Assembly (NCBI RefSeq): GCF_004010195.1
Contig: NC_057726.1
Location: 69,002,458 to 69,066,457 of the forward strand
Length of the DNA stretch: 64,000 nt
Direction of reading: 5' to 3'
Source: Chiloscyllium plagiosum
Taxonomy: Eukaryota
The notes under the pieces were generated by a model. The model ran no database searches and was not told the DNA's origin. It was given only the letters and a program-made list of their open reading frames with translations. Positions 23,270 through 59,599 of this stretch are shown piece by piece. The stretch's first letter is position 1. Each line of letters begins with the position of its first letter. A program made the translations under genes and the position numbers.

Positions 23270-23428
23270 NNNNNNNNNNNNNNNNNNNNNNNNNNNNNNN
23301 NNNNNNNNNNNNNNNNNNNNNNNNNNNNNNNNNNNNNNNNNNNNNNNNNNNNNNNNNNNNNNNNNNNNNNNNNNNNNNNNNNNNNNNNNNNNNNNNNNNN
23401 NNNNNNNNNNNNNNNNNNNNNNNNNNNN
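23270..23428. other. Assembly gap (159 N)
   Basis: Run of N. Confidence 1.
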
Positions 23429-38070: not shown

Positions 38071-39178
38071 AAATCTCTGTAAAATTGCATGCATCAACAA
38101 CTTATACCGGAGTTAATGTGGTTTGCAAGCTTACATTTTCAAAATTCCTCCTGTTTTGATCCATGTTCTAATTTCCAATTCAATATGTTTACATTATCTT
38201 ACTAACCTGTTAATGTAAACTTGCTTGTTGAACCATTTAGGTTCCCGAAGAGTGACTGGATGGATACTAAGTGGGCCTTTGCTCTTCTGAGAGAGCCTAC
38301 AACTCGAGGTTGGGAGGGGAGGGAACGTTCAAAATAGAGAAAGGCCATCGAACACGGAAATTCGGAGGATTTCTTTTCTTTGGAAAGGTGTTCTTTAGAA
38401 TCATCTATCTTAGAGAACGATCCGGGTTTTTAAATATGTTGAAAGCAGAACAAGACAATTTTTTGATTTTCAAGTCGTTCAAAGGTTTTGTTTTGGTTGG
38501 GTTGGGGGGGGATGGGTGGTAATATTAAGAGAAAGTGGGAACACAATTCAAGTCCAAAATCAGATGAGTGAATTTATTGAATGGAAGGACGGGCTCGTAT
38601 GTCCAACTTGTCTACCCCTGATTCTATTCCCTAAGATATATGTTCTTAATATCCAACCTATAACAATCTATCGAAGGGTATAAACATATTACAGAGTCCG
38701 TTGATGAAAATCTGAATAAAATTAAACTGAAATCAAATCGAGTCCGGATAAAAAAGACTTCACACTATCACACGAATCAAAGGCAACCCATTAAAAACTT
38801 GCTGATTTCACATCGCCTGGTGGAGCAATTGCAGATGCAACGATTCAACTCGATCTCATATTTCTGTTAGTACTCTGTCGCTTTGTTTTATATTTTCAAC
38901 ATCCGCAGTACTTCGCAATTTTCCTTTGGCCTTGACAGCAGCTTGTTGGTTAGTTTCGGCAGAAGTGCCTTTGCTTTCGTTCCTCACCGCTCAATGTTCA
39001 AATCCAGGTCATCTACCTCAAAATATTTATATTTCAGGAAACTATTATAATAGAAACCTCAGTAAGCCAATAGGCTGGGTAGAACTTGACTGGTATGATC
39101 TTTATTGTAGTTCCTTCTCAAACCTTTCAAAGTTCACATGTACCACAGCACTTCACCAGTTCTTTCATGATTGGGTAT

Positions 39179-39227
39179 ATGCAAATGTGCAGAACCTCAC
39201 GCCATCTGAGGCCGCTCTGCTATAAAT
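39179..39227 (+). promoter_or_regulatory. Octamer (ATGCAAAT, 39179-39186) and TATA box (TATAAAT, 39221-39227) upstream of the leader exon
   Basis: Perfect octamer 99 nt and TATA 57 nt upstream of ATG 39278; E-box CATCTG at 39203; RUNX-type ACCACA at 39230. Confidence 0.6.
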
Positions 39228-39277
39228 TCACCACAACGTCCGTCTATTGGCAAGAATTGATTATTCCTTCATCCAGT

Positions 39278-39323
39278 ATGATAATATTTCAGCGCATGTT
39301 GGTCCTAGAGATGATTTGGACAG
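39278..39323 (+). CDS. Exon 1, signal peptide (MIIFQRMLVLEMIWT-A)
   Basis: ATG downstream of TATA; phase-1 donor CAG|GTATTG; 148-nt intron to the V exon; reading frame conserved in the inverted paralogous relic. Confidence 0.7.
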
Positions 39324-42300
39324 GTATTGTCTGAAAAAAGTCAATTTTTAAAACGGTCTTTATATTTATTCCTGCTCGACTGTACCATTCGACGTATTAG
39401 AAGTCTTCAAGTCATATCTGAATGTTGAATTAATAGAATGCATTATTTTTTTCTCTCTCTTTCTTTGAAAGCTTTTTGCTATTCCTATTTCCGGGTGTCA
39501 CAGGCGCCCCAACACATTATTCAGAATTTCGGTGCAAGTGTAACAGTTACTTGTGCGTTCAACATTCCGCCTGATGATTCCGAGGTCGATGTCTTGTGGT
39601 GGAAATTGGGCGATAATACATTTCTGCATCCGACCTCCGACGCTAGGAAACGGTATTTTAAGAGAAAGGGTCAGGGCACCTTACAGCTGCTTGACGTCCG
39701 TCTTGAAGATGCTGGAGTTTATTACTGTGGAGTCAGTCAGAATAGAGCGGCGATCAGCAACGGGACTGGAACGAGACTTGTTGTCCACAGTAAGTGTCAC
39801 TGTAGGCAAAGGAATTGTTAGAAATCTCGATAAGATTATTTCGCTGATTATTAATATTAAAATACATTCTAAAATTGGTTGAAAACAAAAAAAATTCAAA
39901 ATCACAGCATGTCAAGCAAGACCAAAGCTAAAGTCTGGAACAAAGAACAAAGAATATTACAGCACAGGAACAGGCCCTTCGGCCCTCCAAGCCTGCTCCA
40001 ATCCAGATCCTCTATCTAAACCTGTAGCCTAATTTTCAAGAGTCTGTATCTCTCTGCTCCGTGCCCATTCATTCCCTGTCCATCTAGATACATCTTAAAG
40101 GAAACTATCATGCCCACCTCTACCACCTCCACTGGCAACACGTTCCAGGCCCCCACCACCCTCTGTGGAAAAAACTTTCCGCCAGTTCTGCTGAAAAGTT
40201 TCCACTCTCACCTTGAACTCGTGACCCTAGGAATTGAGTCACTCACTCTGTGAAAAAGCTTCTTGCTATCCATCCTGTCTATACCTCTTATGATTTTGTC
40301 GACCTAAATCAGGTCTCCCCTCAACCACCATCTTTCGAATGAAAATCTATTCAATCCTTCTAATCTATTCAACTTCTCTCTTCATAGCTAGCCCCTCCAT
40401 ACCAGGCAACATCCAGGTGAACCTCTTCTGTACCCTCTCCAAAGCATCCAACGCCTTTTGATAACGTGCCAATCATAACTGTACGCAGTTTTCCAAATGT
40501 GGCTGAACCAAAGTCTTACACAACTGTAACTGTAGTGTGCCAGTTCTTATAATACCCCTTCGGATGAAAGAAAGATTGCCATATGCCTTCTTGACCACTC
40601 TATCTGCAGATGCTGGAACCTTCAGGATACAATGGACAAAAACACCCAGATCTCTCTGGACATCAATTTTCCCCAGGGCTTTACCATTTACCATAAAGTT
40701 CACTCGAAAACTGGATCTTCCAAAATACATCACCTCGCATGGATTGCACTCCCAGTGGTTCCTACAGACTGATGGATGCTCGACATAAACCTATGAGTAT
40801 AACTATTCCACCTAAACAGCATATTCCTGTGTGCTGCAGGGCAACTTAACATGGCCAATCCACTTAAGCTGCACATTTTTGGGTTTGTGAGAGGAAACTG
40901 TAGCATCCAGAGGAAACCCGTACAGACACAGGGAGAATGCACAAACTCCATACAGAGGCTGGAATTGAATCCTGGTCCCGGCTGCTGTGAAGCAGCTGTG
41001 CTAACCACCTTGAAGCCAAATGAATTGCATAAAACTTCTGCACTGAACAGAACAATTGCCTGAGCACAAAGTGACACTTGTGTAACTCTTATTTTTCCAA
41101 ATTAATTAAACAGAAATACTCAGTATTATTTGTTGGTTATGAGAGGTAATGATGTTCCAAATTGATGGCGTTGAACAATGTTATTCTTAATCCCATTACA
41201 GGTCCACCATCTACCCCGACGATACTTTCCAAAATGCCTGATGGAAGTTCAGACATCGATCTACACCTCGTGTGTGAAACAGTTGACTTTTACCCAGAGG
41301 GGATTACATTCAACTGGTACAAAAATTCAAGCAAGATAGCCACCGGGATAAAATCTACAGAGTACTTGACCGATGCGGGGCTATACCGAGCTTCCAGTAC
41401 GCTACAGGAATCACAGCCAGTCCAGAAAGACAACGCTTATATTTGTTTGGTATCTCACAGCACCCTCCAAAGTCCGAAATTATCTGTTTATTTGGAGTCT
41501 AGATCTAATTCAGGTAGGAAACCAATGGCTGGATTCTCATATATAAATATCCAATAATATTACAACTGAAGTCACATAGGAATAAAGCTAGAGCACCAAA
41601 TTTTACTTAGGTAGTAATTGGATACCACATATTCCGGTACTGAACAGGCGCATGCAAACTGGGTAAATATCACAGGAACAGGCCATTCAGCCAACCAGTC
41701 TGTGCAGATCATGGTGTCATTCTAAACTAATCCCATCTGCCTCACATGGTTTGGATTTCTCTATTCCCTGTCTGTTCATGGTCTGTCTAAATGCCTCTTA
41801 AACATTGTTGTCATTGTTGACTTCTCCACCTCCTCATGCTGCCTGGATTGCTGTATTCTTCCAGCATCTGCAGCTTTTTGTCTCTTCCACCTAACCTGGC
41901 AGAATGTTCCAGGCACTCTCTGTGAAATATTTTCCTCACACAGGTCTTTTAAATGTTGCCCTCTCACCTTAAACTTATTCACCCTAATATTTGACATTTC
42001 CACCCGTGGGGAAAAAAGACTCTGACTATCCACCTGTCGCCTCTTAGTGTCCTACGCTTGAGTGAATACAGTTCAAGTTTGTATAACCTCCCCTTGTAGC
42101 TAATACAGTCTAAAAGAGGCAGCATCTTGCTAAACTTCTTTTGCAATCTCTGAAAAGTCTGCTGATCCTTCCCACAGTTCGTCAACTAAAATGGCACGCA
42201 AGACTTCAAATGGAGATTTCAATAAAGTTTTACACACCTCCAAAATGACTTGCCAAGTTATATACTCAAAACCCTGACTGGCTGAACACCTCATTCCTGA

Positions 42301-45300: not shown

Positions 45301-48300
45301 TTTAGCTGACAACCCAATAAACCCTCCATCTTATCTTCCTATCTTACTCTTTAATTTCTCTTTGCTGCACCTCATTTCACTACCTGTCTTTGGCATGTGT
45401 TCTAGTATGGAACATGATCTCTGGCTGATCACCTTTCCATTTCAAAATGTCCTATGCCCACTCAGAGGCTACTAGGGAGGCAATTCTGCCACTAGGGAGG
45501 CAACACACCATCCTGGAGACTTGCTTGTGGCCACAGAAATGACTCATTTTGCCCTTGACTAAAGAATCCCCTATGACAATCACTTGTACAATGGATCCAA
45601 TTGTGGTGCCATTGATCTGGCTGCTGCTGTTACGTTCCCTGAGAGGTCGTCCTCCAACTCCAAAAAATATCCAAATGGTGCACCTGTTTGAGAGGGGAAT
45701 AACCAGAGGGGGCTCCCTCATTGCCTGCCTGTCCCTTCTGGTATTCATCTGGCTGAACCTCAGCCGTGACCACATCCCTGAAACTCCAGGCTATAACAAA
45801 GCAGGATTGTGCTGCCTGTGGTAATCTGTGCTCTCAAACACTGCATGATAACCATGTCTTTGCAGATGGGGACTGTGTACATCGACAGATACAATCAAAT
45901 GCAATAGGAATTTAAGGCAAAAATGCTTTACTCATAAACTAAATTCATATGTGAATTCATTAGCTCAGGAAATGGTTAAGTGAAGTAGAGAAGTGTTTAA
46001 AACCAAAATAAAAATAGCAAAATGAATAATAATGTACTGAAAAGTTGGGATCTGGTACTTCAAATGGAGTACAAGGACCAATCATCAGATAGAGCAGGTA
46101 GGCCAATTTGAGTTTCAAATACCAAAGGTTGGACCCCGTTTTCTTCATACGTTCGAAATAATCCGATGCAAACTCACAAAAAAGTGATGAGCCTAACCGA
46201 TACGAGCACTCAGACACAAGAGCAGGAGAAGGGAGCAGTTGGAGACAGTCACCATTACCTTAACGAGGAGATGGAAAGGCCTCTGACCTACAGTGGAGCA
46301 GTTCGGTCTGGGAAGTTGTTAACTCCTGCGTGAATCTGATCTGCGAAGGAGTGATTTGGGTTGAAGGTTATAAATTGTAAGCAATTCCCGAGGTGTCCCC
46401 AATTTAAGAAGCATCTGACCTTCGTCTCAGGGTTGGATGCTATAAATCATGAGTGAGGTCAATGACATTTACCTGGGAGTTGGAAAGACACACCGTTCAG
46501 CTGCTATAAACTGGCTAGCAGTGAGTTTGACATCACGCTGTAAAATTAATGAACTGATATGAAACTATATGAGAAGCTGTTCTGAAAATATTATGTCAGG
46601 AAAGCACATAGAGCAGCTAAGCGTAGATTTAATGATGAAATAATATGAAGAAGTGTAAGTCAAGACTAAATTAATAAAGTCATGTGAGAAATCCAAAATA
46701 GTAAAATGTTGGTGTAAGATAATTTTCAGAGAATGCAACTCAGCTCAGTCATGTCGACTCCGTGCCCTGTAATATGTGGGAAATCAGGCACTATCTCCGA
46801 GATGGCACGCTTTTCCCGACTAAATGTACTTCAGGTCAGCTCTGAGGAAGATTAACTATGATTTCTCTCCACACATTCTGCCGGATCTACTGAGCTTTTC
46901 CAGCAATTTCTGTTTTAGTTTGTGCTATTCTTCAGGCTTTCTATTTACAAATTCTTTTCTTCTCAACTTCTGTCCATGACCGCTTATCGATAACTCATTT
47001 TCGGTAAACTCATATTTACATAAACTAATCTTTCTGTAATTGATTCCAACTCTTCGCTGATTTCTGAGCAAGTAAGTTTCTTGAAACTTTCTGAGAATAG
47101 CCTTGAAACTTTTCCACTCATTAGTTACAGACCCAATGGCTAATGGTCGCACAGTGTCCTCAGGTTTGCTTTGACAATTTCTGTTTGTAGTAAGCACCAT
47201 TCCACCTGACACAGGGTACACTTCTATTGAAGATGGGCACGCTTTAAGCTCCATATCTAATCAAGCCTCAGAATCTCTTCCATTTTGAAAGGACTTCTCC
47301 CATTATGTTAAAAGATTAAGACTGTGAAATGCCTGCAGTGTGCTATCCTATTGTAGGAGGAACTGAGGACTGTAGATACTGGAGATCTGAGTCAAAACGT
47401 GTGCGCTGCTGAAGCACAGCCAGTCAGGCAGCATCCGAGGAGCAGGAGAGTCGATGTTTTGGGATAAGCCATTCATCAGGAACCTAGGGTAGGGGCGAGC
47501 AATTTCATGTCAGGGTAAATGATTTCAAAGGCGATATCTAACAGCACAGTTTAACTAAACAAAACATCCACGCTTCAATTCAAAGAAACAAGGCATGACG
47601 TAAAAATGAGGAAAGGTTTAATCGCTTCGATCTGTCTTGTGATATATTTTAATTTCACTCTAGTTTTCATGAGCAGTATCCAATTGCTAACTCTACAGCT
47701 TTCATGCTGACACAAAATGAATCAATTGTTGTATACATCGATAATTATGGATTTATCTCAGAAATCTTCCCAGCTGCCCTCATTAATCTTCTAGGTATCG
47801 ACATTAATTTTGATATTTTGGCGATTGGGTGCACAGTCGGCGGACTCGTCTGTCTAGTGCTGGGGGCGGTCATTGGAAAGCGATGCAAGGCACGTTCATG
47901 CAAAGGTAGAGGAGGTCTATGTTTACGCTGTCGGAACATTTTCAATGTGTAAAGAAGAAATGCTATTGTCAGTAGCTCCTAAACTGAGTTTAGATCGGAG
48001 TGGCGCTGGAAAAGCACAGCAGATCAGGCAGCATCCGAGGAGCAGGTAAATCGATGTTTAATATTTCTGATGAAGGGCTTTTTCCAGAAACGTCGATTTT
48101 CCTGCTCCTCGGATGCTGCCTGACCTGCTGTCCTTTTCCAGCACCACTCCGACCTAAACTCTGGTTTCCAGCATCTGCAGTCCTCACTTTTGCCTAGCTC
48201 CTAACTTGAGTACAAAAATTTCATCTTAATTTCATCTTAATCGAGAATAGAAAATTGGGTGACACATTGTACTAACATGAATAAATACTTATAATTTTTT

Positions 48301-51300
48301 TAATGCTATCATCTTTTTCATGTTTATGCTGAAGTATAGCTCCAATTCAGGATCCAAAATTATGAGCGCCTAGTGATTCCAATCCATTATATTTATGTAC
48401 AATAATGAATTAAGACGATATGTTTCATGGAAGTTGGATGTTTCTGTACCTCTCGCTTGGTCTGTAAAAAGAAAGCACACAATAATGTCTTGCAAATTAT
48501 ATTCCCAATGCACAGGGCCAAATCAAGATATGGCTCGACAATGTGAAGAAACGGTAAGTCCAATTATGTTAACACCCTTATAGAAAGTGTATTATTTATT
48601 TTGTATTGTGGAAGCAGTCTGTCATTTTATCGTACTTCCATTTTTATTCTGTTGCACAGGTTTAGGAGTGGGGAAAGAAGAGACATTGACACTAATCCCC
48701 ATTGTTGGTAGATTTATTGAATACTGGAGAAAAAGCAAAATACAGTGGCAGATCTGAATTAAATCAGAAAGTTTTGGAGAAACTGAGCACGTATAGACGC
48801 CACCAGTGGATAGAGAAGCAAGGTTAGCTGAAGACAACATGCCACTTCTTTGTAACTCTTTTGAAGCCTCAAGAGTTCAAAAGAGCTGTAAATGTTAATC
48901 TTGTTGCTGTATCCTGCTGCCAGACCTGTTGAGTTTCTGCTGTACTTTCTGATTGCACATCATCAATTTCAGGAATGACTTTGACTGAAAATTATGTGTA
49001 AAATAGCCAAGACTAAGCAACACACATGCACACAAGCATGACTGAAGTTCTGGAAAACCCTTTATATAAATCATCGAATCCCCACAGTGTAGAAACAGGC
49101 CATTTGGCCCAATAAGTCTCACTGATCCTCTAAGGGACAAACCACCCAGACTCAATCCCCTACTCTAAATTTCATAATCATTATGGTCCATGTTTAAAGA
49201 AAGTACAGTTTGTAATTTTAAGATTGCATTCAAGATCTTACTTCTCTTCCTATCACCTTTCACATAACTGACTTAATCCAGCAGACAAAGTAGCTTATTG
49301 GGCTTCCTGGTATTTACTCTAACTGAAAATTCAATGCCATATGTACTGTCTGGTGAAGATATAGCACAGCAAGTGACAACATTGAAATCTTCAGATTGAA
49401 ATAGTCTAAATCAAACTCCATAGAATATAAATCAAATGCTGTCAAAGAAAAGTCAGATTCCACTGCAGCCTGGAGCTGAACTTTCAGATAATTGTGTAAT
49501 CAATCATATACTGCTTTTATCTTTCATGGTTGTAGGAGTCATTGGTTTAGAACAAGATATGTCAGTGAGTGCAACAGTACTTTTTCAGATGATCTATTGA
49601 CAGTGGTGAGATTGAAGTTTTAAAGTGGTGTATGGGTTAAAAATCAAGCAGACTGCTTCAGAATGCATGGAGCTTATGTGTGTACTTGAGCTGCACATAT
49701 CCACGATGTGGTGAATATCCCTTTATAGTCTCAATTTGTGCTTTTTAAGTAGCAGGCATGTTTGAAGAGGCATGAGGTAAGTAGCTCAGAGCTGGCTATT
49801 TATCAGCTCAGGCCCGAATGTTATTCCAGTATGGACATGGAGTGTTTCAGTACTTCGGCAACATGACTGGTCATGAGCTCTGTGCATTCAGCTGGAACAT
49901 TCCAACTTCTTGGTGGAGTTAAGGTCATAGTTCAAGAAGCTCAAAATAATTCCTCCCATGACTCTAATCTTAGCAACTAATGCCATGATGGCCTGAGACT
50001 AAAATGATTGCTCTCCAGTCATCTTTACTTGTGATGAACGTAATTAACAGATAGCGTGTTCCCTCATTTTGATTCACTTAGTTTTTCCAGATGTCAAATG
50101 TTACCTTGATGTAAATTGCAGTCTTCTCGCCTCACCCCCTCAGTTTGACTGATTTGTCCATCCATGAATGATGAGATCAGTATTTGAGTTGCATTGGCAG
50201 TACTGGGCCATAGTGACAGCTTTTTTGATCGTGTAAGTGTTATTTCATAACACTTTACAATGCTAGACGAATTATGGAGATCAGTCTGACAAACGGTTGA
50301 TTGTTTAAGTTAAATTTGTCCTGATTTCTGTTCACAGAATGTACATTGAAAATGTGGCAGGGGGATGTCTGTATTTTAACTACTCTGAAACAACTGGCTG
50401 ACTGACTTCAGCTAGTTGGGGAATGTATTTTCATTAGAATTATGCATTGCTTTGGCTCAAAAAGACAGGTCACCTGAACATTCTCAAAGCCAACCAAGGG
50501 TGCGAAACAAATACTGATCCAGTGTGTGGCGGCCACATACCACGAGTGAATATACATTTTGAAATGTGAGGGTACATAGCCATTGAGCTAATCAAGAGGC
50601 TACAATGGTCTTACCAGGCCTAAAGAGTTATAATTGCATGTATCAAGCAATCAATGATAAATCAATTCTGGGACCAAAACAATGATACACACAAAGTATT
50701 GAATTTTATCTATAAAACAGTAGAATACAGTAGTAATAATATCAGTTAAACAGGAGATTACTTCTGATAAATTGCATTTTACACATTTCATCAAGGCTAA
50801 GAAATGTGAGGGTAATTAAGCAGTGAAAGTGGCACAGGAAACACAATATATTTCTTTTATTGTATGTCCAAGTTCTGATGAATAGTGGAGAAATTTGGTC
50901 CTTAAAAGAGGTTCTGGAAAGAAATGATTAGAACACTGTGAACATGAAACATTAATTTTAATTAAACTGTGAAAGATGTGTTTTGACATTCACAAAGATG
51001 TTTGGTGATCGCTGCAATGTGATTTTCTTCACCAGAAAAACAAACAAGCTAAAGAAACATCTGACCAGTGTAGAGGTCCTGATGAGGTGATTCAGGTTAG
51101 AAATTTATATTTGTTTCAGAAACAACTGAATACTGCAATAGAAAAACCTAATGTTTTTCTGTATCATACTGGCAAGGAAAATAAAATCACAGGCCTCAAT
51201 TTATGATCAATGAGTTTGAATTAGATGCAGATCATTTGCATGAGATTTCTGCGCGGTTGTCATCATACAAATGCAATGTGGACAAAATTAGAAACAGTAG

Positions 51301-52751
51301 ATAAAATTAGTTACAAGCTCAACAGATTCAAAAGTATATGCATTAGTTGTTTTTTTAAATATAAGCAAAATGAAGGATTTCAGTTTTCTAGGAAATTAAT
51401 ATAATCTGAATCACAGTGAATTGTTAAACTAACAAAGCAATGGTGAATGGTATGAACTGCAAGGAAGCAGATGGATATGGGAAAAGAACCAGACTCCGAA
51501 ATTGTGTGTTGTTTCCTCCTCTCATCTCACAGAAGGTTTGTTCAGCCCACAAAACTTTAAGTAAAATTCCAGGATTTTGACAAAAATTTGGAGTTACATG
51601 AGGCAGATCAGTAAGTTCAACAGTCACAAATGAAGACAACAGTTGTCACCATAATCAGTGTTGTGAGAATCAGCAAACAATGGATGTCATGCAAGTAGAA
51701 CAAGGAGAATAAGTTGGAATTCATAATACACATGGACAAAGATACCAAAACCATAAAACTGACTAGTGGGCAGAGAGCAGAGACACTCAAAATGTGTTAA
51801 AAGGTTGAGTTAAAAGTCAGTGAATGGAAGTTGAAATGACTGACAATAGATTCTCAGATATAGTGAGCTTTTCATGTATAATAAAAAAAATGAACAGGGC
51901 ACCAAAATGGCACCTACTCACATTTAGGGAGTAATTATCATTAATATGTCCACTGCCATTTTGCAGTGCGCACAGGAAAGTATTGATTGCACAAAATAAA
52001 TGGATATGCATTGATCTTGAATGAAAGTCATCTTCAGCAATTTAGAGACAAGATTTTGTCGACTCCCAGTGGAAGGTAATGCTTTAACTTAAAAGACAAA
52101 GAATCGTGTTATGGAATAAAAATACAATGAGAGATGACTTGTTTTAACCTTGTGTGCGAGGTCATGACTCTAAGTTGTACCACCCAAGTTTAACTAAAAG
52201 GATTTGAGTCAAGAAAGATACCTGACTGTTGCAATGCTAACATTAACAGATTTTCTTTTGTTTCTGGCTGTGAATGTACCTGAGTTTATGTATTAACCAC
52301 CAACTAACTGATAAATCTTTCTTGATGCACTGATCATTGAGACTGCAATTTAGGACTTGCGAAATATGAGCAAGTAGTATGTTAATTCCAAAAGATTTCA
52401 TATTGTTTGATGCAATTATAAAATGTAATGATGTTCTACTTTCAGCATAAGTATCATATTAATAACTAGTTAAACTTAGACCAACATAATGTGATGAACA
52501 ACAGCTTGCAACCAAAATACTTAATTTTTATATTTAATGATCTAAAAACTAATGGAATAATATTGGACTAATAAAATTCTGAATTGGTACAGATGCTGGA
52601 AATGACCGAAGAAAACAACATGGGTTACGCAGCTCTTAATTTGTTTAGTTCAGAAAAAAGACGGACGCACAGGCAACAGGAAGAATGTACACAGTATGCT
52701 GCAATTAAGACAGGCATGGATGGATCGCGAGATTTATCCAAAAAGACTTAA
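39278..52751 (+). CDS. Six-exon non-rearranging VJ-C1-TM immunoglobulin-superfamily receptor with an ITIM-like/ITSM tail (antigen-receptor-like / SIRP-like), 327 aa
   Basis: join(39278-39323,39472-39789,41202-41513,47795-47905,48516-48553,52593-52751) = 984 nt, open frame, all introns GT-AG, phases 1,1,1,1,0. Confidence 0.8.
39472..39789 (+). CDS. Exon 2, Ig V-set domain with a germline-joined J-like strand
   Basis: VSQAP...GASVTVTC...VLWWK...TLQLLDVRLEDAGVYYC...NGTGTRLVV; polypyrimidine tract plus aag| acceptor; A|GTAAGT donor. Confidence 0.95.
39940..41010 (-). mobile_element. Antisense CR1 3' fragment (39940-40750) and V-SINE (~40755-41010) in intron 2
   Basis: ORF 40473-40733 QRDLGVFVH...VVKKAYG...TLVQPHLENCVQL; SINE core on the minus strand. 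Confidence 0.8.
41202..41513 (+). CDS. Exon 3, Ig C1-set domain
   Basis: LVCETVDFYPEGITFNWYKN...GLYRASSTL...YICLVSHSTL (C-x4-FYP, W and Y-x-C-x-V-x-H motifs); acceptor ttacag|, donor CAG|GTAGGA. Confidence 0.95.
41665..45775 (-). mobile_element. Near full-length but decayed antisense CR1 LINE in intron 3, with a nested V-SINE (43432-43720, +) and an L2-like tail (~44060-44240)
   Basis: ORF1 SGNH-esterase motifs PLSNR..VIVIGDSLVKG..MVCCLP (45452-45775) and DGLNLNW (44919-45218); endonuclease EAIRVEIRNK..HYRIPNS (44535-44768); RT and 3' tail toward 41670. Confidence 0.8.
47795..47905 (+). CDS. Exon 4, transmembrane segment
   Basis: GIDINFD-ILAIGCTVGGLVCLVLGAVIG-KRCKARSCK: hydrophobic helix followed by a basic stop-transfer stretch; acceptor cttctag|, donor AAG|GTAGAG. 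Confidence 0.85.
47990..48194. mobile_element. Palindromic Penelope-derived insertion with a hammerhead-like core and an imperfect 17-bp target-site duplication (intron 4)
   Basis: Flanks tagctcctaaactgagt (47973-47989) and tagctcctaacttgagt (48195-48211); CTGATGA-aggg..tcca-GAAAC-GTC at 48067-48094. Confidence 0.7.
48516..48553 (+). CDS. Exon 5, short cytoplasmic exon (GPNQDMARQCEET)
   Basis: Acceptor cacag|, donor ACG|GTAAGT; converts phase 1 to phase 0 as the next exon requires. Confidence 0.7.
52593..52751 (+). CDS. Exon 6, terminal cytoplasmic exon with two tyrosine motifs
   Basis: MLEMTEENNMGYAALNLFSSEKRRTHRQQEECTQYAAIKTGMDGSRDLSKKT*; branch-like ACTAAT at 52567 with the first AG at 52591-52592; too short (52 aa) for the supplied ORF track. 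Confidence 0.8.
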   Translation: MLEMTEENNMGYAALNLFSSEKRRTHRQQEECTQYAAIKTGMDGSRDLSKKT

Positions 52752-53299: not shown

Positions 53300-54090
53300 C
53301 AAAACCGAGGGATCTGGGTGTCCTTGACGTACAAATCACAAAAACACGCATATCCAAGTTCAGCAAGTGATAGAGAGTGAAATTAAATATTAGCCTTAAT
53401 TTCAAGAGGAATGGAATATAAACTAAGGAGGTTTTGCAAAAACTAAGGCGGTTTTGCTGAAACTATACAGAGCACTGTTTGGATTACATATGGGATATTG
53501 TAAATAGATGCAGGAATAGTGTGGACGTGATGGGCTGAAGTGCCTTTTGCTGCATTGTGGACTCTGTGACTCTATCTATGGAAAGATATACTGACACTGG
53601 AGGCAGTCCAGGCAAGTTTCAGTACATTGATACCAGGTAGGAGGTCAAGCGCGCAGGAAGCTGTCTTATGGGGAAAGGTTCAATCAATCAGTCTTGTAAT
53701 CAATGGAATTTGGAAAAATGAGAGACAACCTGGTTGAAACATGCAAAATCTTTCAGGACTTGACAGGGTCAATGCAGAAAGATAGTTTTCCTTGTGGGCA
53801 AGTCTGGGGTCAAAGGACATAACCTCAGAATAAGGAGTCACACATTTAAGATGGAGATAAGCAGGAATTTCTTGTCTCGAAGGGTACTGACTCTGTGGGA
53901 TTCTTTACCACAGGGACCTGCTGAGGTGGTTAAGTATATTTAATGTTCAGATGAACGGATTTTTAATTAGTAAAAAGGCAGAAAAATGCACTTGATGATT
54001 TTCAGATCAGCCGTGATGTCACTGAATAGTGGAGCAGACTTGATGGGCTGAATGATCTACTTCTGTTCCTATGTTTTATGGTTTTATAGT
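53300..54090 (+). mobile_element. CR1 LINE 3' fragment
   Basis: RDLGVL trace at 53308; typical CR1 3' UTR and tail. Confidence 0.75.
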
Positions 54091-54676: not shown

Positions 54677-55392
54677 ATGTATAGTAGTGTGGCTAGTCCT
54701 TTGGGTTGTGGCATGTCCTCATTCCGTTGTCACAAGGACTAGCCACACTACCATACATCAAGAGCATTTCCGAACTGACAACCAGACTACTGCGACCACT
54801 AGGACTCATAACAGCACACAAACCAACAGCCACTCTCAGACAACAACTCATCAGGACGATGGACCCGATACCCAGCATGAGCAAAAGAAATGTAGTGTAC
54901 AAAATCCCATGCAAGGACTGCACAAAACACTACATAGGACAAACAGGAAGACAGCTAATGATCCACATCCATGAACACCAACTAGCCACGAAGCGACACG
55001 ACCAGCTATCCTTAGTAGCCACACACTCAGATGACAAGCAACATGAATTCGACTGTGACAACACTATTATTATAGGACAAGCCAAACAGAGAACAGCCAG
55101 GGAATTCCTAGAGGCATGGCATGCATCCACAGATTCAATCAATAAGCACATCGACCTGGACCCAATATACCGGCCACTGCAGCGGACAGCTGGAACTGAC
55201 AACCGGAAGCAGCAGATACAAATCACTATAAATCCCGGAGGAAACATCACAAAAGCGCTTCACAGGAGGGTCCCAAGCACTGAGGCTGTCACCTAGACAG
55301 GGGACGAAACGTCTGCAACTCAAATTCCCAGTTCGGTGAACAGAACCACAACAACGAGCACCCGAGCTACAAATCTTCTCACAAACTTTGAA
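54677..55392 (+). mobile_element. 5'-truncated Penelope element encoding a GIY-YIG endonuclease, with 5' inversion and a terminal hammerhead-like motif
   Basis: ORF 54706-55296 NVVYKIPCKDCTKHYIGQTGRQL..IHEHQ..H.FD..R..LEAWH; 25-bp inverted repeat 54677-54701/54734-54758; CTGAGGC-TGTC..GAC-GAAACGTC at ~55280-55313. Confidence 0.9.
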
Positions 55393-57497: not shown

Positions 57498-57671
57498 CAG
57501 AGGAACCTTGATTATCCGAAGGACACGGATGGGGAGTATTTCATTCAGTTAATCGAATTCCGGATAATCAAATGCCGAATTATATAGTTTAGCCAAGCAT
57601 CGGAACCTTGTGTTCTTGCCAGATAGTCCTATATTCAGATAATCAAATGCCAGATAATTGAGGTTCCTTTG
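57498..57671. mobile_element. Tc1/mariner (Tigger/pogo-type) MITE
   Basis: TA|CAGAGGAACCTTGATTATC ... GATAATTGAGGTTCCTTTG terminal inverted repeats, 174 bp. Confidence 0.75.
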
Positions 57672-57674
57672 CAC

Positions 57675-59270
57675 CTCTCTACGTCTGTCTCTCTCTGTGA
57701 ATCGTTTCCTGTCTTCTCTATATGTCAATTCCTATTTCGAATTCTCTCTGCCTCTCCCTCTCTCTGTCATATTCATAATTTGCCATGTTCTTTCCCAGTT
57801 TCTTTGTCACTCTTGCTTAGTCGTGATGTCTAAATCTCTTTTTGCCCGTCCCTGTCTTTGTCTTTCTGATTACTTCATGATCTTGAACTCTCTACTGCTC
57901 TCTCTCCTCTGCTGGTCATTCTTGTGTTCTTTCTCTGTGCCTTTCTCCCTTGGTCTCTGTCTTACTATCTCCCTATTATTATCTCTTTCTATTTCTCAAT
58001 CTCTGTCTCTGTCCCTTTGACTCTCTGTCTCTGCCTCTCTGTCCATCTCTGTGTGGCTCTTTCTCACGATATTCGGCTGGTCCTCTATCTCACACTCTCT
58101 TGCTGTAATTCTCTTTATCTGTCATTCTCTCTGTCTGTCTATCTCTTTCTTGCTTTCTTTACCCCTCTATTTCTATATCTCTCTGTTTCTGCCTGTGTCT
58201 TTTTGTCTCAATCTGTGTCTCTCATCCCATGTGTCATTCTCTCAATTTCTCAATCTGTCATTTCTTGGTTGGTCTCCCCATGAAGCTCTCTCTGTTTCTT
58301 ACTATCTCTCTCTCTATCTCTATCAACTGTTCTAACAGTATTGCTGTTTTTCTCTCTCTATCTCTATCAGTCTCTCTAACAATATTCCTGTTTTTCTCTC
58401 TCTCTGTCAGTCTTTCTGACATTGTCTCTGTTTCTCTGTCTGTCTCCCTCTCTCTCTCTCACTTTTATTTTGTTTCTTTGTGTCACTCCATTTCTCCTTC
58501 TGTGTCTCCACATTTTCTCTCTCGCCTTGCACTCCCTGTCCCTGAACCTCTCACTGTATCAATGTCTATCTGTTGGTCCCTCTGATTGTCTCTCTGTCAC
58601 TATCATTGCATCTCTATATCTGTTTGCCACTCTGTCTGTATCTCTCTGTCCATCTTTGTCGGCATAAATCTCTGTCCCTGCATCTATCTGCGTCAATTGT
58701 TATTTCTGTATTTCTTTCTTTCAGTCTCCCTGTAATTCTCTTTCTACCTTTCTCTGTCCATCTATGTCGCTTTCCAGGGCTCTCTTTGTATTTCTGTCTG
58801 TGTGTCTCTCTCTGCCTAGAGTTAGAAATCATTCTGTTTCTAACCCCCTCTGCATTGTTCAGTACTCCTCTATTTTTGCCCTCACTGGATCTCTCACCCC
58901 TTGAGAGTCTCTCTCTGCCTCTCAATCTCTATTTCTGTCTGTTTCTTTGTAACTCTGCTTTGTTTATCACTTTGTTGTTCTGTTTCTGTCTCTCCCAATC
59001 TCTCTCTGGAGCTAGCTTACATTCTCGTCTCTTGCTCCTCTTCTCTTAGTGTTGTTGTCTTTTGTGTCTGTCTCCTTGATTCTGTCTCTCCACCTGTGTA
59101 GCTCTCTGTCTTTCCCTATTACTCACTTTCTCTGTCGTTTATTCTCTCCCTCTATTCCACTGTGTTTGTCCCTTGTGTTCTGTGCCTCCATTGCACTCTT
59201 TGTTGATTTGTGACTCTACCTCTTTGTTTCTTTGCCATGTGCTCTGTGCCTCTCAGCTCATGCACTGTCT
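57675..59270. repeat. Degenerate CT-rich low-complexity tract
   Basis: About 1.6 kb of decayed (CT)/(CTGT) repeats. Confidence 0.9.
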
Positions 59271-59599
59271 CTTATTAACTTCATTAAACTCCATCAAAAC
59301 AACTGTAAGTTCAAGCCCTGAAACTTCTCAAAAATAAGCAATGAGAACCTTCCATATTACATTTTTACAGCATGACTCAAGGATTAAGTTTCAAACTGAT
59401 GTGGGGCCAACACAAAGTCAATGTCTGTTTCTGCTGAATAAATTGCATCATTGAATATTTCTGTTGAAATGCATTCTGTTTCTTCACAGATATCAGTGTG
59501 AATGACTTCTGAACTTGCAGAGGTTGTCAGCTCAGCTTTCAATTTGTCAACATTCTCATGTCTATTCAACTTTTATGCCTTTCTTCAATTAGATTTCGA

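What the first reader, a model, noticed from the sequence alone, without database searches (positions are those of the whole stretch)
52593..52751. Hidden terminal exon with a tandem ITIM-like + ITSM pair 23 residues apart
This exon is absent from the ORF track. It encodes MGYAALNL (Y codon at 52626) and TQYAAI (Y codon at 52695). TxYxxI is a canonical ITSM. MxYxxL is a variant ITIM (consensus S/I/V/L at -2). Order and spacing resemble the SIRP-alpha ITYADL..TEYASI pair and the PD-1 ITIM-ITSM pair that engage tandem-SH2 phosphatases. Inference: a SHP-1/SHP-2-recruiting checkpoint receptor, possibly switchable by SAP-family adaptors.
Basis: partly seen in the sequence, partly recalled or inferred. 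Interest (0 to 1): 0.75.

Follow-up and report, generated by a model that had tools for sequence, protein, structure and literature searches.

The report
Conserved shark antibody-like inhibitory receptor
This is the last exon of an already machine-annotated bamboo-shark gene for an antibody-like surface protein; its two tyrosine motifs are kept exactly 23 residues apart in 9 of 10 shark orthologue models, so it likely acts as an immune-cell brake, within a little-studied shark and ray receptor family that also has likely activating members.

Summary
In detail: 52593-52751 encodes MGYAAL (Tyr codon 52626) and TQYAAI (52695), 23 codons apart. The exon is not hidden: the window's exons reproduce RefSeq XP_043563424.1 (LOC122558695, Chiloscyllium plagiosum) letter for letter. 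The protein is leader, germline-joined VJ, one C1, an uncharged membrane helix and a ~70-residue tail.

Both tyrosines and the spacing are kept in 9 of 10 shark orthologue models while linker and flanks drift. The ITSM is canonical in 9 of 9 and the ITIM in 7 of 9; the Met here is lineage-specific. SHP-1/SHP-2 recruitment is therefore likely, though untested. A SAP switch is unlikely, because pY-1 is Gln, His or Glu, never hydrophobic.

It is not PD-1 and does not group within SIRPs (AU p=0.015). It belongs to a multigene VJ-C1 family of sharks, rays and chimaera with ITIM-tailed members and short-tailed members carrying a membrane Arg, which looks like a paired-receptor system. Ten open-access searches found no description of the family, but three key papers were not held. 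Contigs from a related organism show an unannotated 60-nt exon spliced to this one.

The parts
39278..39323 (+). Leader exon, coding part from the ATG that matches the orthologues' start (RefSeq starts further upstream in frame at 39167); phase-1 donor
39472..39789 (+). V-set exon with germline-joined J-like strand (GxGTxLxV); no RSS heptamer in 39001-41300
   Evidence: Pfam V-set E 8e-09
41202..41513 (+). C1-set exon (the only C1 motif found in the window)
   Evidence: Pfam C1-set E 1e-11
47795..47905 (+). Transmembrane exon, uncharged core; skipped in RefSeq isoform X2
   Evidence: helix 268-296 in the model
48516..48553 (+). 38-nt cytoplasmic exon (phase 1 to 0)
   Evidence: needed to reproduce XP_043563424.1
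51036..51095 (+). Unannotated 60-nt phase-0 cassette exon, no tyrosine, keeps the frame
   Evidence: AG/GT borders and open frame; contig X1 record 5 joins 51092 to 52590, equal to 51095|52593 with CAG shared
52593..52751 (+). Terminal coding exon (52 codons plus TAA)
52620..52637 (+). ITIM-type motif MGYAAL (V or L at -2 in most orthologues)
52689..52706 (+). ITSM-consensus motif TQYAAI
53382..53387 (+). Candidate polyadenylation signal ATTAAA (weak)
   Evidence: X2 record 15 ends at 53388, but X1 record 6 runs on to 53540

Best explanation
The exon encodes the tail of a single-pass, non-rearranging VJ-C1 immunoglobulin-superfamily protein that likely acts as an inhibitory leukocyte receptor by recruiting SHP-1/SHP-2 through its conserved ITIM-ITSM pair. 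Shown: the exon structure, the V, C1 and membrane domains, the uncharged membrane core, motif-selective conservation with a fixed 23-residue spacing, and membership of a chondrichthyan multigene family. Inferred: ligand binding by the V domain leads a Src-family kinase to phosphorylate Tyr324 and Tyr347 (XP_043563424.1 numbering). The pair then acts as one bivalent dock, with the ITSM on the C-SH2 and the ITIM on the N-SH2 of SHP-2 (or SHP-1 or SHP-2L), and the opened phosphatase damps nearby activating receptors. These plausibly include the family's own short-tailed members with a membrane Arg. The ligand and cell type are unknown; a conserved self ligand is the likeliest for a gene kept as a single orthologous lineage across sharks.
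For: The exons reproduce the RefSeq protein. Both tyrosines are 23 apart in 9 of 10 orthologue models from five shark orders (orders recalled); TxYAA[IV] in 9 of 9 and [VL]xYAAL in 7 of 9. In the four distant orthologues with both motifs intact, the motifs keep 4-5 of 6 residues while the linker keeps 5-6 of 17 and the flanks 0-2 of 9 and 0-2 of 12. In organism A contigs, three of the five listed differences in the coding exon change a residue (one is Met to Val, giving the canonical ITIM) and the first Tyr codon changes silently. Family-wide, 23 is the commonest Tyr-Tyr interval (23 of 76 intervals in 24 long tails). The tail is predicted disordered (pLDDT under 50 for 299-364). T(-2), A(+1), I(+3) and L(+3) fit the SH2 preferences quoted in PMC12151841, which also reports the SHP-1/2 SH2 pockets conserved across jawed vertebrates (passages).
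Against: There is no binding or cell data. The window's own ITIM fails the strict consensus (Met at -2), the S. torazame orthologue has LVYAVP, and the S. canicula model P0166 lacks the pair (its 3' end looks mis-modelled; not checked). Splice support comes only from contigs of another organism, in runs whose RNA status is a guess. Both motifs also fit the general tyrosine sorting pattern YxxL/I (recalled).
Confidence: 0.8

Rival explanations
1. It is the shark orthologue of SIRP-alpha (a CD47-type self sensor) with a shortened ectodomain.
For: Several relatives carry automatic SIRP-like names. SIRP-alpha (2wng) and SIRP-gamma (4i2x) are among the top family-profile hits in the PDB (116.9 and 104 bits). 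SIRP clusters score 0.96 in the atlas. Long-tailed paralogues repeat the ITIM-ITSM unit. Family plus SIRP branch together at 93/84, unstarred.
Against: It has one C1 domain, not two. Two V-domain signatures present in 5 of 5 SIRP-type rows are absent in 29 of 29 family rows. V identity to SIRP rows is 24-28%, against 32-50% to paralogues. SIRP rows form their own clade (100/96), and holding this gene's orthologues with them is rejected (AU p=0.0146). The automatic names are inconsistent (B7-H6-like, CD276, Ig lambda, tapasin-related).
Confidence: 0.12
2. The family is the chondrichthyan branch of PRARP (non-rearranging VJ-C1 genes with two ITIM/ITSM-type motifs; description recalled from Fu et al. 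2019). The mechanism would be the same as in the best explanation, but the kind already named.
For: Same architecture as recalled. A coelacanth V-C1-TM protein (XP_064425669.1) is sister to the family at 100/95, so the lineage reaches bony vertebrates.
Against: PRARP is cited as an MHC gene (PMC10751288 passage), whereas the sawfish family member's name is absent from that paper's sawfish MHC chromosome 34 list (indirect). The coelacanth row is a long branch (1.69).
Confidence: 0.3
3. The ITSM is a SAP/EAT-2 switch, so the receptor can activate or inhibit.
For: Canonical TxYxxI in 9 of 9.
Against: High-affinity SH2D1A binding depends on a hydrophobic pY-1 (PMC12151841 section 21); here it is Q, H or E in 9 of 9.
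Confidence: 0.08
4. The tyrosines are mainly sorting or endocytosis signals, or dock another SH2 protein (SHIP, Csk), rather than SHP phosphatases.
For: YxxL/I fits AP-2 sorting motifs (recalled); the ITIM is degenerate in 2 of 9.
Against: Sorting motifs do not need a second tyrosine at fixed distance or an invariant T(-2) and A(+1).
Confidence: 0.1

Closest known systems
SIRP-alpha / SIRP-beta paired receptors
   Same: Joined-VJ domain followed by C1; ITIM-then-ITSM unit of similar spacing (about 24 in SIRP-alpha, recalled); inhibitory and short-tailed activating-type paralogues
   Different: One C1; one motif pair; SIRP V signature absent; separate clade; activating-type paralogues carry Arg near the outer end of the membrane helix
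PD-1 (PDCD1)
   Same: One ITIM followed by one ITSM (human Y223/Y248, 25 apart), likely a bivalent SHP-2 dock
   Different: PD-1 has a single V and a stalk (PMC11599192 passage) and its own shark orthologue; its ITIM consensus (I/V)(D/E)YG(E/V)L(D/E)F is not met
PRARP (Fu et al. 2019; seen only as a citation, features recalled)
   Same: Non-rearranging VJ-C1 with two inhibitory/switch motifs
   Different: Cited as MHC-linked; orthology untested; a large paired family in sharks is not part of what I recall
NKp30 (NCR3)
   Same: Germline VJ domain with a GxGTxLxV strand; membrane Arg resembles that of the activating-type paralogues (recalled)
   Different: NKp30 has a single V and is activating; the sawfish NCR3 genes lie on the MHC chromosome; this gene has C1, an uncharged membrane core and a tyrosine tail
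UrIg
   Same: Shark non-rearranging VJ-C1 gene; second PDB hit of the family profile (9dmx, 127.4 bits)
   Different: V plus three constant domains (PDB title), antibody-like, in MHC class III

Membership tests
ITIM | (S/I/V/L)xYxx(I/V/L) | tested here: not met
   The window has Met at -2; met in 7 of 9 orthologue models that have the tail (consensus)
ITSM (consensus) | TxYxx(V/I) | tested here: met
   TQYAAI; 9 of 9 orthologue models
SAP-switch ITSM (CD150 type) | Hydrophobic residue at pY-1 | tested here: not met
   Q, H or E in 9 of 9
ITIM/ITSM inhibitory receptors | Phosphorylation-dependent SHP-1/2 binding and inhibition | not testable with these tools
   Needs a pull-down or cell assay
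SIRP | V-C1-C1 ectodomain (recalled; two C1 domains counted in session rows P0120 and P0134) | tested here: not met
   One C1 exon in the window and in RefSeq
   5 of 5 SIRP-type rows, 0 of 29 family rows
SIRP | Groups with SIRPs in a V+C1 tree | tested here: not met
   AU p=0.0146 against orthologues plus 3 SIRP rows as one clade
SIRP | Whole family is the sister group of SIRPs | tested here: inconclusive
   93/84 with only 8 outside rows and long branches
SIRP | CD47 binding; synteny with the SIRP locus | not testable with these tools
   No genome is held and no neighbouring gene was found in the window
PD-1 | Single V domain plus stalk; PD-1 ITIM consensus | tested here: not met
   C1 exon present; motif differs
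NKp30/NCR3 | Single V, charged membrane residue, short tail (recalled) | tested here: not met
PRARP | Germline VJ-C1 with two ITIM/ITSM motifs (recalled) | tested here: met
PRARP | Orthology by tree | not tested
   No sequence named PRARP came up in any call
PRARP | MHC linkage | tested here: inconclusive
   Indirect: the sawfish member's name is not in the sawfish MHC chromosome list; bamboo-shark MHC is reported on Chr37, and this gene's chromosome number was not determined
UrIg | V plus three constant domains | tested here: not met
Rearranging Ig/TCR | Split V and J with RSS | tested here: not met
   V and J strand in one exon; no heptamer in 39001-41300

The most novel reading that the evidence does not exclude
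The gene is the conserved inhibitory anchor of an undescribed paired-receptor family of germline VJ-C1 genes shared by sharks, rays and chimaera, with a coelacanth sister gene, distinct from SIRP, NCR3, PRARP and UrIg. It would be the cartilaginous-fish counterpart of KIR/SIRP/NITR self-versus-non-self systems and a living relative of the pre-RAG VJ-C1 antigen-receptor precursor.
Probability: 0.35. Interest if true: 0.65.

Novelty: new member of a known kind. Interest (0 to 1): 0.4.

Why it matters
The ITIM-ITSM tail itself is a familiar design and the gene is already in RefSeq, so the exon alone is a modest find. Its value is as an entry point. It marks a multigene family of non-rearranging VJ-C1 receptors in cartilaginous fish, scattered under misleading automatic names, with inhibitory and activating-type members on one chromosome-length contig per species. 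Inhibitory NK and myeloid receptors of sharks are poorly defined (own knowledge), and germline VJ-C1 genes are the proposed precursors of Ig/TCR (PMC10751288). A shark-wide conserved member gives a concrete target for ligand hunting and for testing how old bivalent SHP docking is.

Tried and rejected
No whole genome is held, so synteny was not tested.

RNA: the run search listed no holder on record as RNA. Same-species raw-read runs X7 (about 2% read) and X8 (about 6% read, nothing laid) gave no depth over the last exon; this is no test of expression. Most depth in that call lies on repeats.

Structure: a PDB search with the V domain alone was uninformative (best single-stretch hits were PD-L1 at about 31 bits). 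The VIA fold search gave tied generic two-Ig-domain matches (Z 17.1-15: Rst, B7-H6, Neph1, PD-L2); SIRP and NKp30 were not among the 50 rows, which excludes nothing.

Trees: my motif filter in the first tree (48 rows) dropped several family rows, including P0161, P0168, P0012 and P0020. These were restored, where P0060 and P0142 were dropped for lack of the V motif. The partial models P0004 and P0008 were left out of the 10-model count. The crude C1 counter undercounts (pig SIRP scored 1) and is not relied on.

Other: the 60-nt exon peptide has no match among session proteins under 520 aa (best score 29, against self 106). Eight other long frames of the window gave no Pfam hit. Three look-ups of earlier scan findings returned nothing.

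Literature: ten searches listed no paper whose title or abstract start describes this family. Ohta 2019, Fu 2019 and Flajnik 2023 are not held, and Kinlein 2021 (recalled) was not looked up, so 'undescribed' is not established.

Full report
OBSERVATION. Bases 52593-52751 follow an AG acceptor and read 52 codons to TAA in phase 0. The tyrosine codons lie at 52626 (MGYAAL) and 52695 (TQYAAI), 23 codons apart. The exon escapes ORF lists only by being short. Taken alone the pair is not striking: 16 of 100 shuffled windows hold at least one such pair in six frames. Inside this 74-residue tail it arose in 2 of 200,000 permutations.

THE GENE. Upstream on the same strand are a V-set exon (39472-39789; Pfam E 8e-09), a C1-set exon (41202-41513; E 1e-11), a membrane exon (47795-47905) and a 38-nt exon (48516-48553), all with AG/GT borders. 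With the leader exon these reproduce RefSeq XP_043563424.1 (364 aa, LOC122558695, Chiloscyllium plagiosum) exactly, and without the membrane exon XP_043563425.1. So the exon is annotated, not hidden. V and its J-like strand lie in one exon with no RSS heptamer nearby: the gene does not rearrange. The model has confident V and C1 domains, one membrane helix (268-296) and a disordered tail. The membrane core has no charged residue.

TRANSCRIPTS. Contigs of two runs of 'organism A' (RNA status is the tool's guess; two studies) cover the last exon at about 96% identity. X1 record 5 joins 51092 to 52590. Because both sides end in CAG, this is the GT-AG joint 51095|52593. It confirms use of the acceptor and reveals a 60-nt phase-0 exon (51036-51095) that RefSeq lacks; this exon keeps the frame and adds no tyrosine. 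The same contig retains upstream intron, and other contigs are intronic, so these runs hold unspliced RNA or DNA as well. The five listed differences in the coding exon are Met to Val at ITIM -2, His to Gln, Glu to Asp and two silent ones, including the first tyrosine; 270 further rows of that table were not shown. The two same-species read sets gave no cover and are no test.

CONSERVATION. Trees of the V+C1 region define an orthologue clade (9 rows, 100/100; 6 rows including Heptranchias, 100/99), 10 species models in all. Nine of the 10 keep both tyrosines exactly 23 apart; the S. canicula model ends in unrelated sequence. The ITSM is TxYAA[IV] in 9 of 9. The ITIM is [VL]xYAAL in 7 of 9; the exceptions are this gene (Met) and S. 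torazame (LVYAVP). In Mustelus, Heterodontus, Heptranchias and Pristiophorus the motifs keep 4-5 of 6 residues, the linker 5-6 of 17 and the flanks 0-2 of 9 and 0-2 of 12. No ray or chimaera row fell in this clade among those sampled.

THE FAMILY. A search of all cluster representatives and a profile search (24 of 25 hits are cartilaginous fish, the last a weak unrelated match) show many V-C1 relatives, about 30-45% identical. Named ones come from sharks, rays and Callorhinchus. Within a species they share the same longest-contig length (eight Heterodontus, four Heptranchias and four Mustelus proteins), so one chromosome and probably a cluster; physical adjacency is not shown. Of 64 representatives scoring 200 bits or more, 24 have long tails with ITIM/ITSM-type motifs, 5 have short tails with a membrane Arg, 14 have other short tails, 6 have long tails without a motif, and 15 have no membrane helix in the model (pattern-based, and many models are partial). 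The commonest tyrosine interval is 23 (23 of 76), with 14-16 next as a group: the unit in this exon is the family's repeated module. This mix is the pattern of paired receptors; the activating function is inferred.

PLACEMENT. The family plus one coelacanth V-C1 protein form a clade (100/95) apart from three SIRP-type rows (100/96). Family and SIRP join at 93/84 with only 8 outside rows. Forcing this gene's orthologues together with the SIRPs is rejected (AU p=0.0146), and SIRP V signatures are absent from 29 of 29 family rows. SIRP-alpha is nevertheless among the best PDB matches of the family profile, with UrIg and antibody chains, so a distant sister relation stays open. PD-1, NKp30 and UrIg differ in domain plan. 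PRARP fits the architecture as I recall it but could not be tested.

MECHANISM. Best reading (0.8): an inhibitory receptor whose doubly phosphorylated tail docks both SH2 domains of SHP-2, SHP-1 or SHP-2L. PMC12151841 gives the consensus definitions. It reports that the SH2 pockets are conserved across jawed vertebrates, that C-SH2 favours T(-2), A(+1) and I(+3) and N-SH2 favours L(+3), and that Ala at ITIM pY+1 promotes SHP-1 recruitment; this tail has all of these residues. The same paper says the SAP switch needs a hydrophobic pY-1, which none of the 9 orthologues has. Phosphorylation, binding, inhibition, ligand and cell type are all inferred.

LITERATURE SEEN. PMC12151841: passages and section 21. 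PMC10751288: passages and two term searches of its supplement. PMC11599192 and PMC7677710: passages. All others: search listings only. Ohta 2019, Fu 2019 and Flajnik 2023 were seen only as reference entries and are not held; their text and supplements may already list these genes. Ten searches listed no description of the family. The SIRP-alpha spacing, NKp30 and PRARP features and shark orders are recalled.

VERDICT. A real, conserved and already annotated exon; a likely inhibitory SHP-recruiting receptor; not a SAP switch, not PD-1, and not a member of SIRP by the features tested. New member of a known kind. Interest is 0.4, carried mainly by the surrounding family; the undescribed-family case has probability 0.35 and would deserve 0.65.

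Noticed in passing
window 51036-51095 (+): A 60-nt phase-0 exon absent from all RefSeq models seen. It is spliced to the last exon in contig X1 record 5 (with upstream intron retained from 50550). X2 record 14 also starts its alignment at 52590, which fits the same joint, but its first 58 letters are not shown.
   Followed up: partly
window 47795-47905 (+): RefSeq isoform X2 skips the membrane exon in frame and keeps the tyrosine tail; the Pristiophorus model P0167 also lacks it. Possibly a real soluble or non-membrane form.
   Followed up: no
window 39167-39277 (+): RefSeq starts 37 codons upstream of the ATG matching other sharks; the extension is also open in the C. punctatum draft model (P0004).
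   Followed up: partly
P0139 (XP_064425669.1, Latimeria): Coelacanth V-C1-TM protein with a Lys near the membrane helix and a short tail; sister to the shark family (100/95, long branch).
   Followed up: partly
P0017, P0028, P0032, P0063, P0086, P0172: Family members with short tails and an Arg at the outer end of the membrane helix, followed in most by a DH motif: activating-type candidates. P0017 is sister to the ITIM-bearing P0015 (100/99).
   Followed up: partly
P0118, P0119, P0122, P0123: Family proteins with V joined directly to the membrane segment (no C1). P0119 and P0122 look like C1-skipped isoforms of P0060 and P0046.
   Followed up: no
PMC10751288 supplement, reedfish chr12 sheet: [quoted passage not shown]
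   Followed up: no
window 54697-55296 (+): 199-codon frame resembling a Penelope-type retroelement endonuclease remnant (resemblance recalled; no Pfam hit).
   Followed up: partly
window 23270-23428; about 57600-59300: Assembly gap of 159 N; long pyrimidine-rich low-complexity tract.
   Followed up: no
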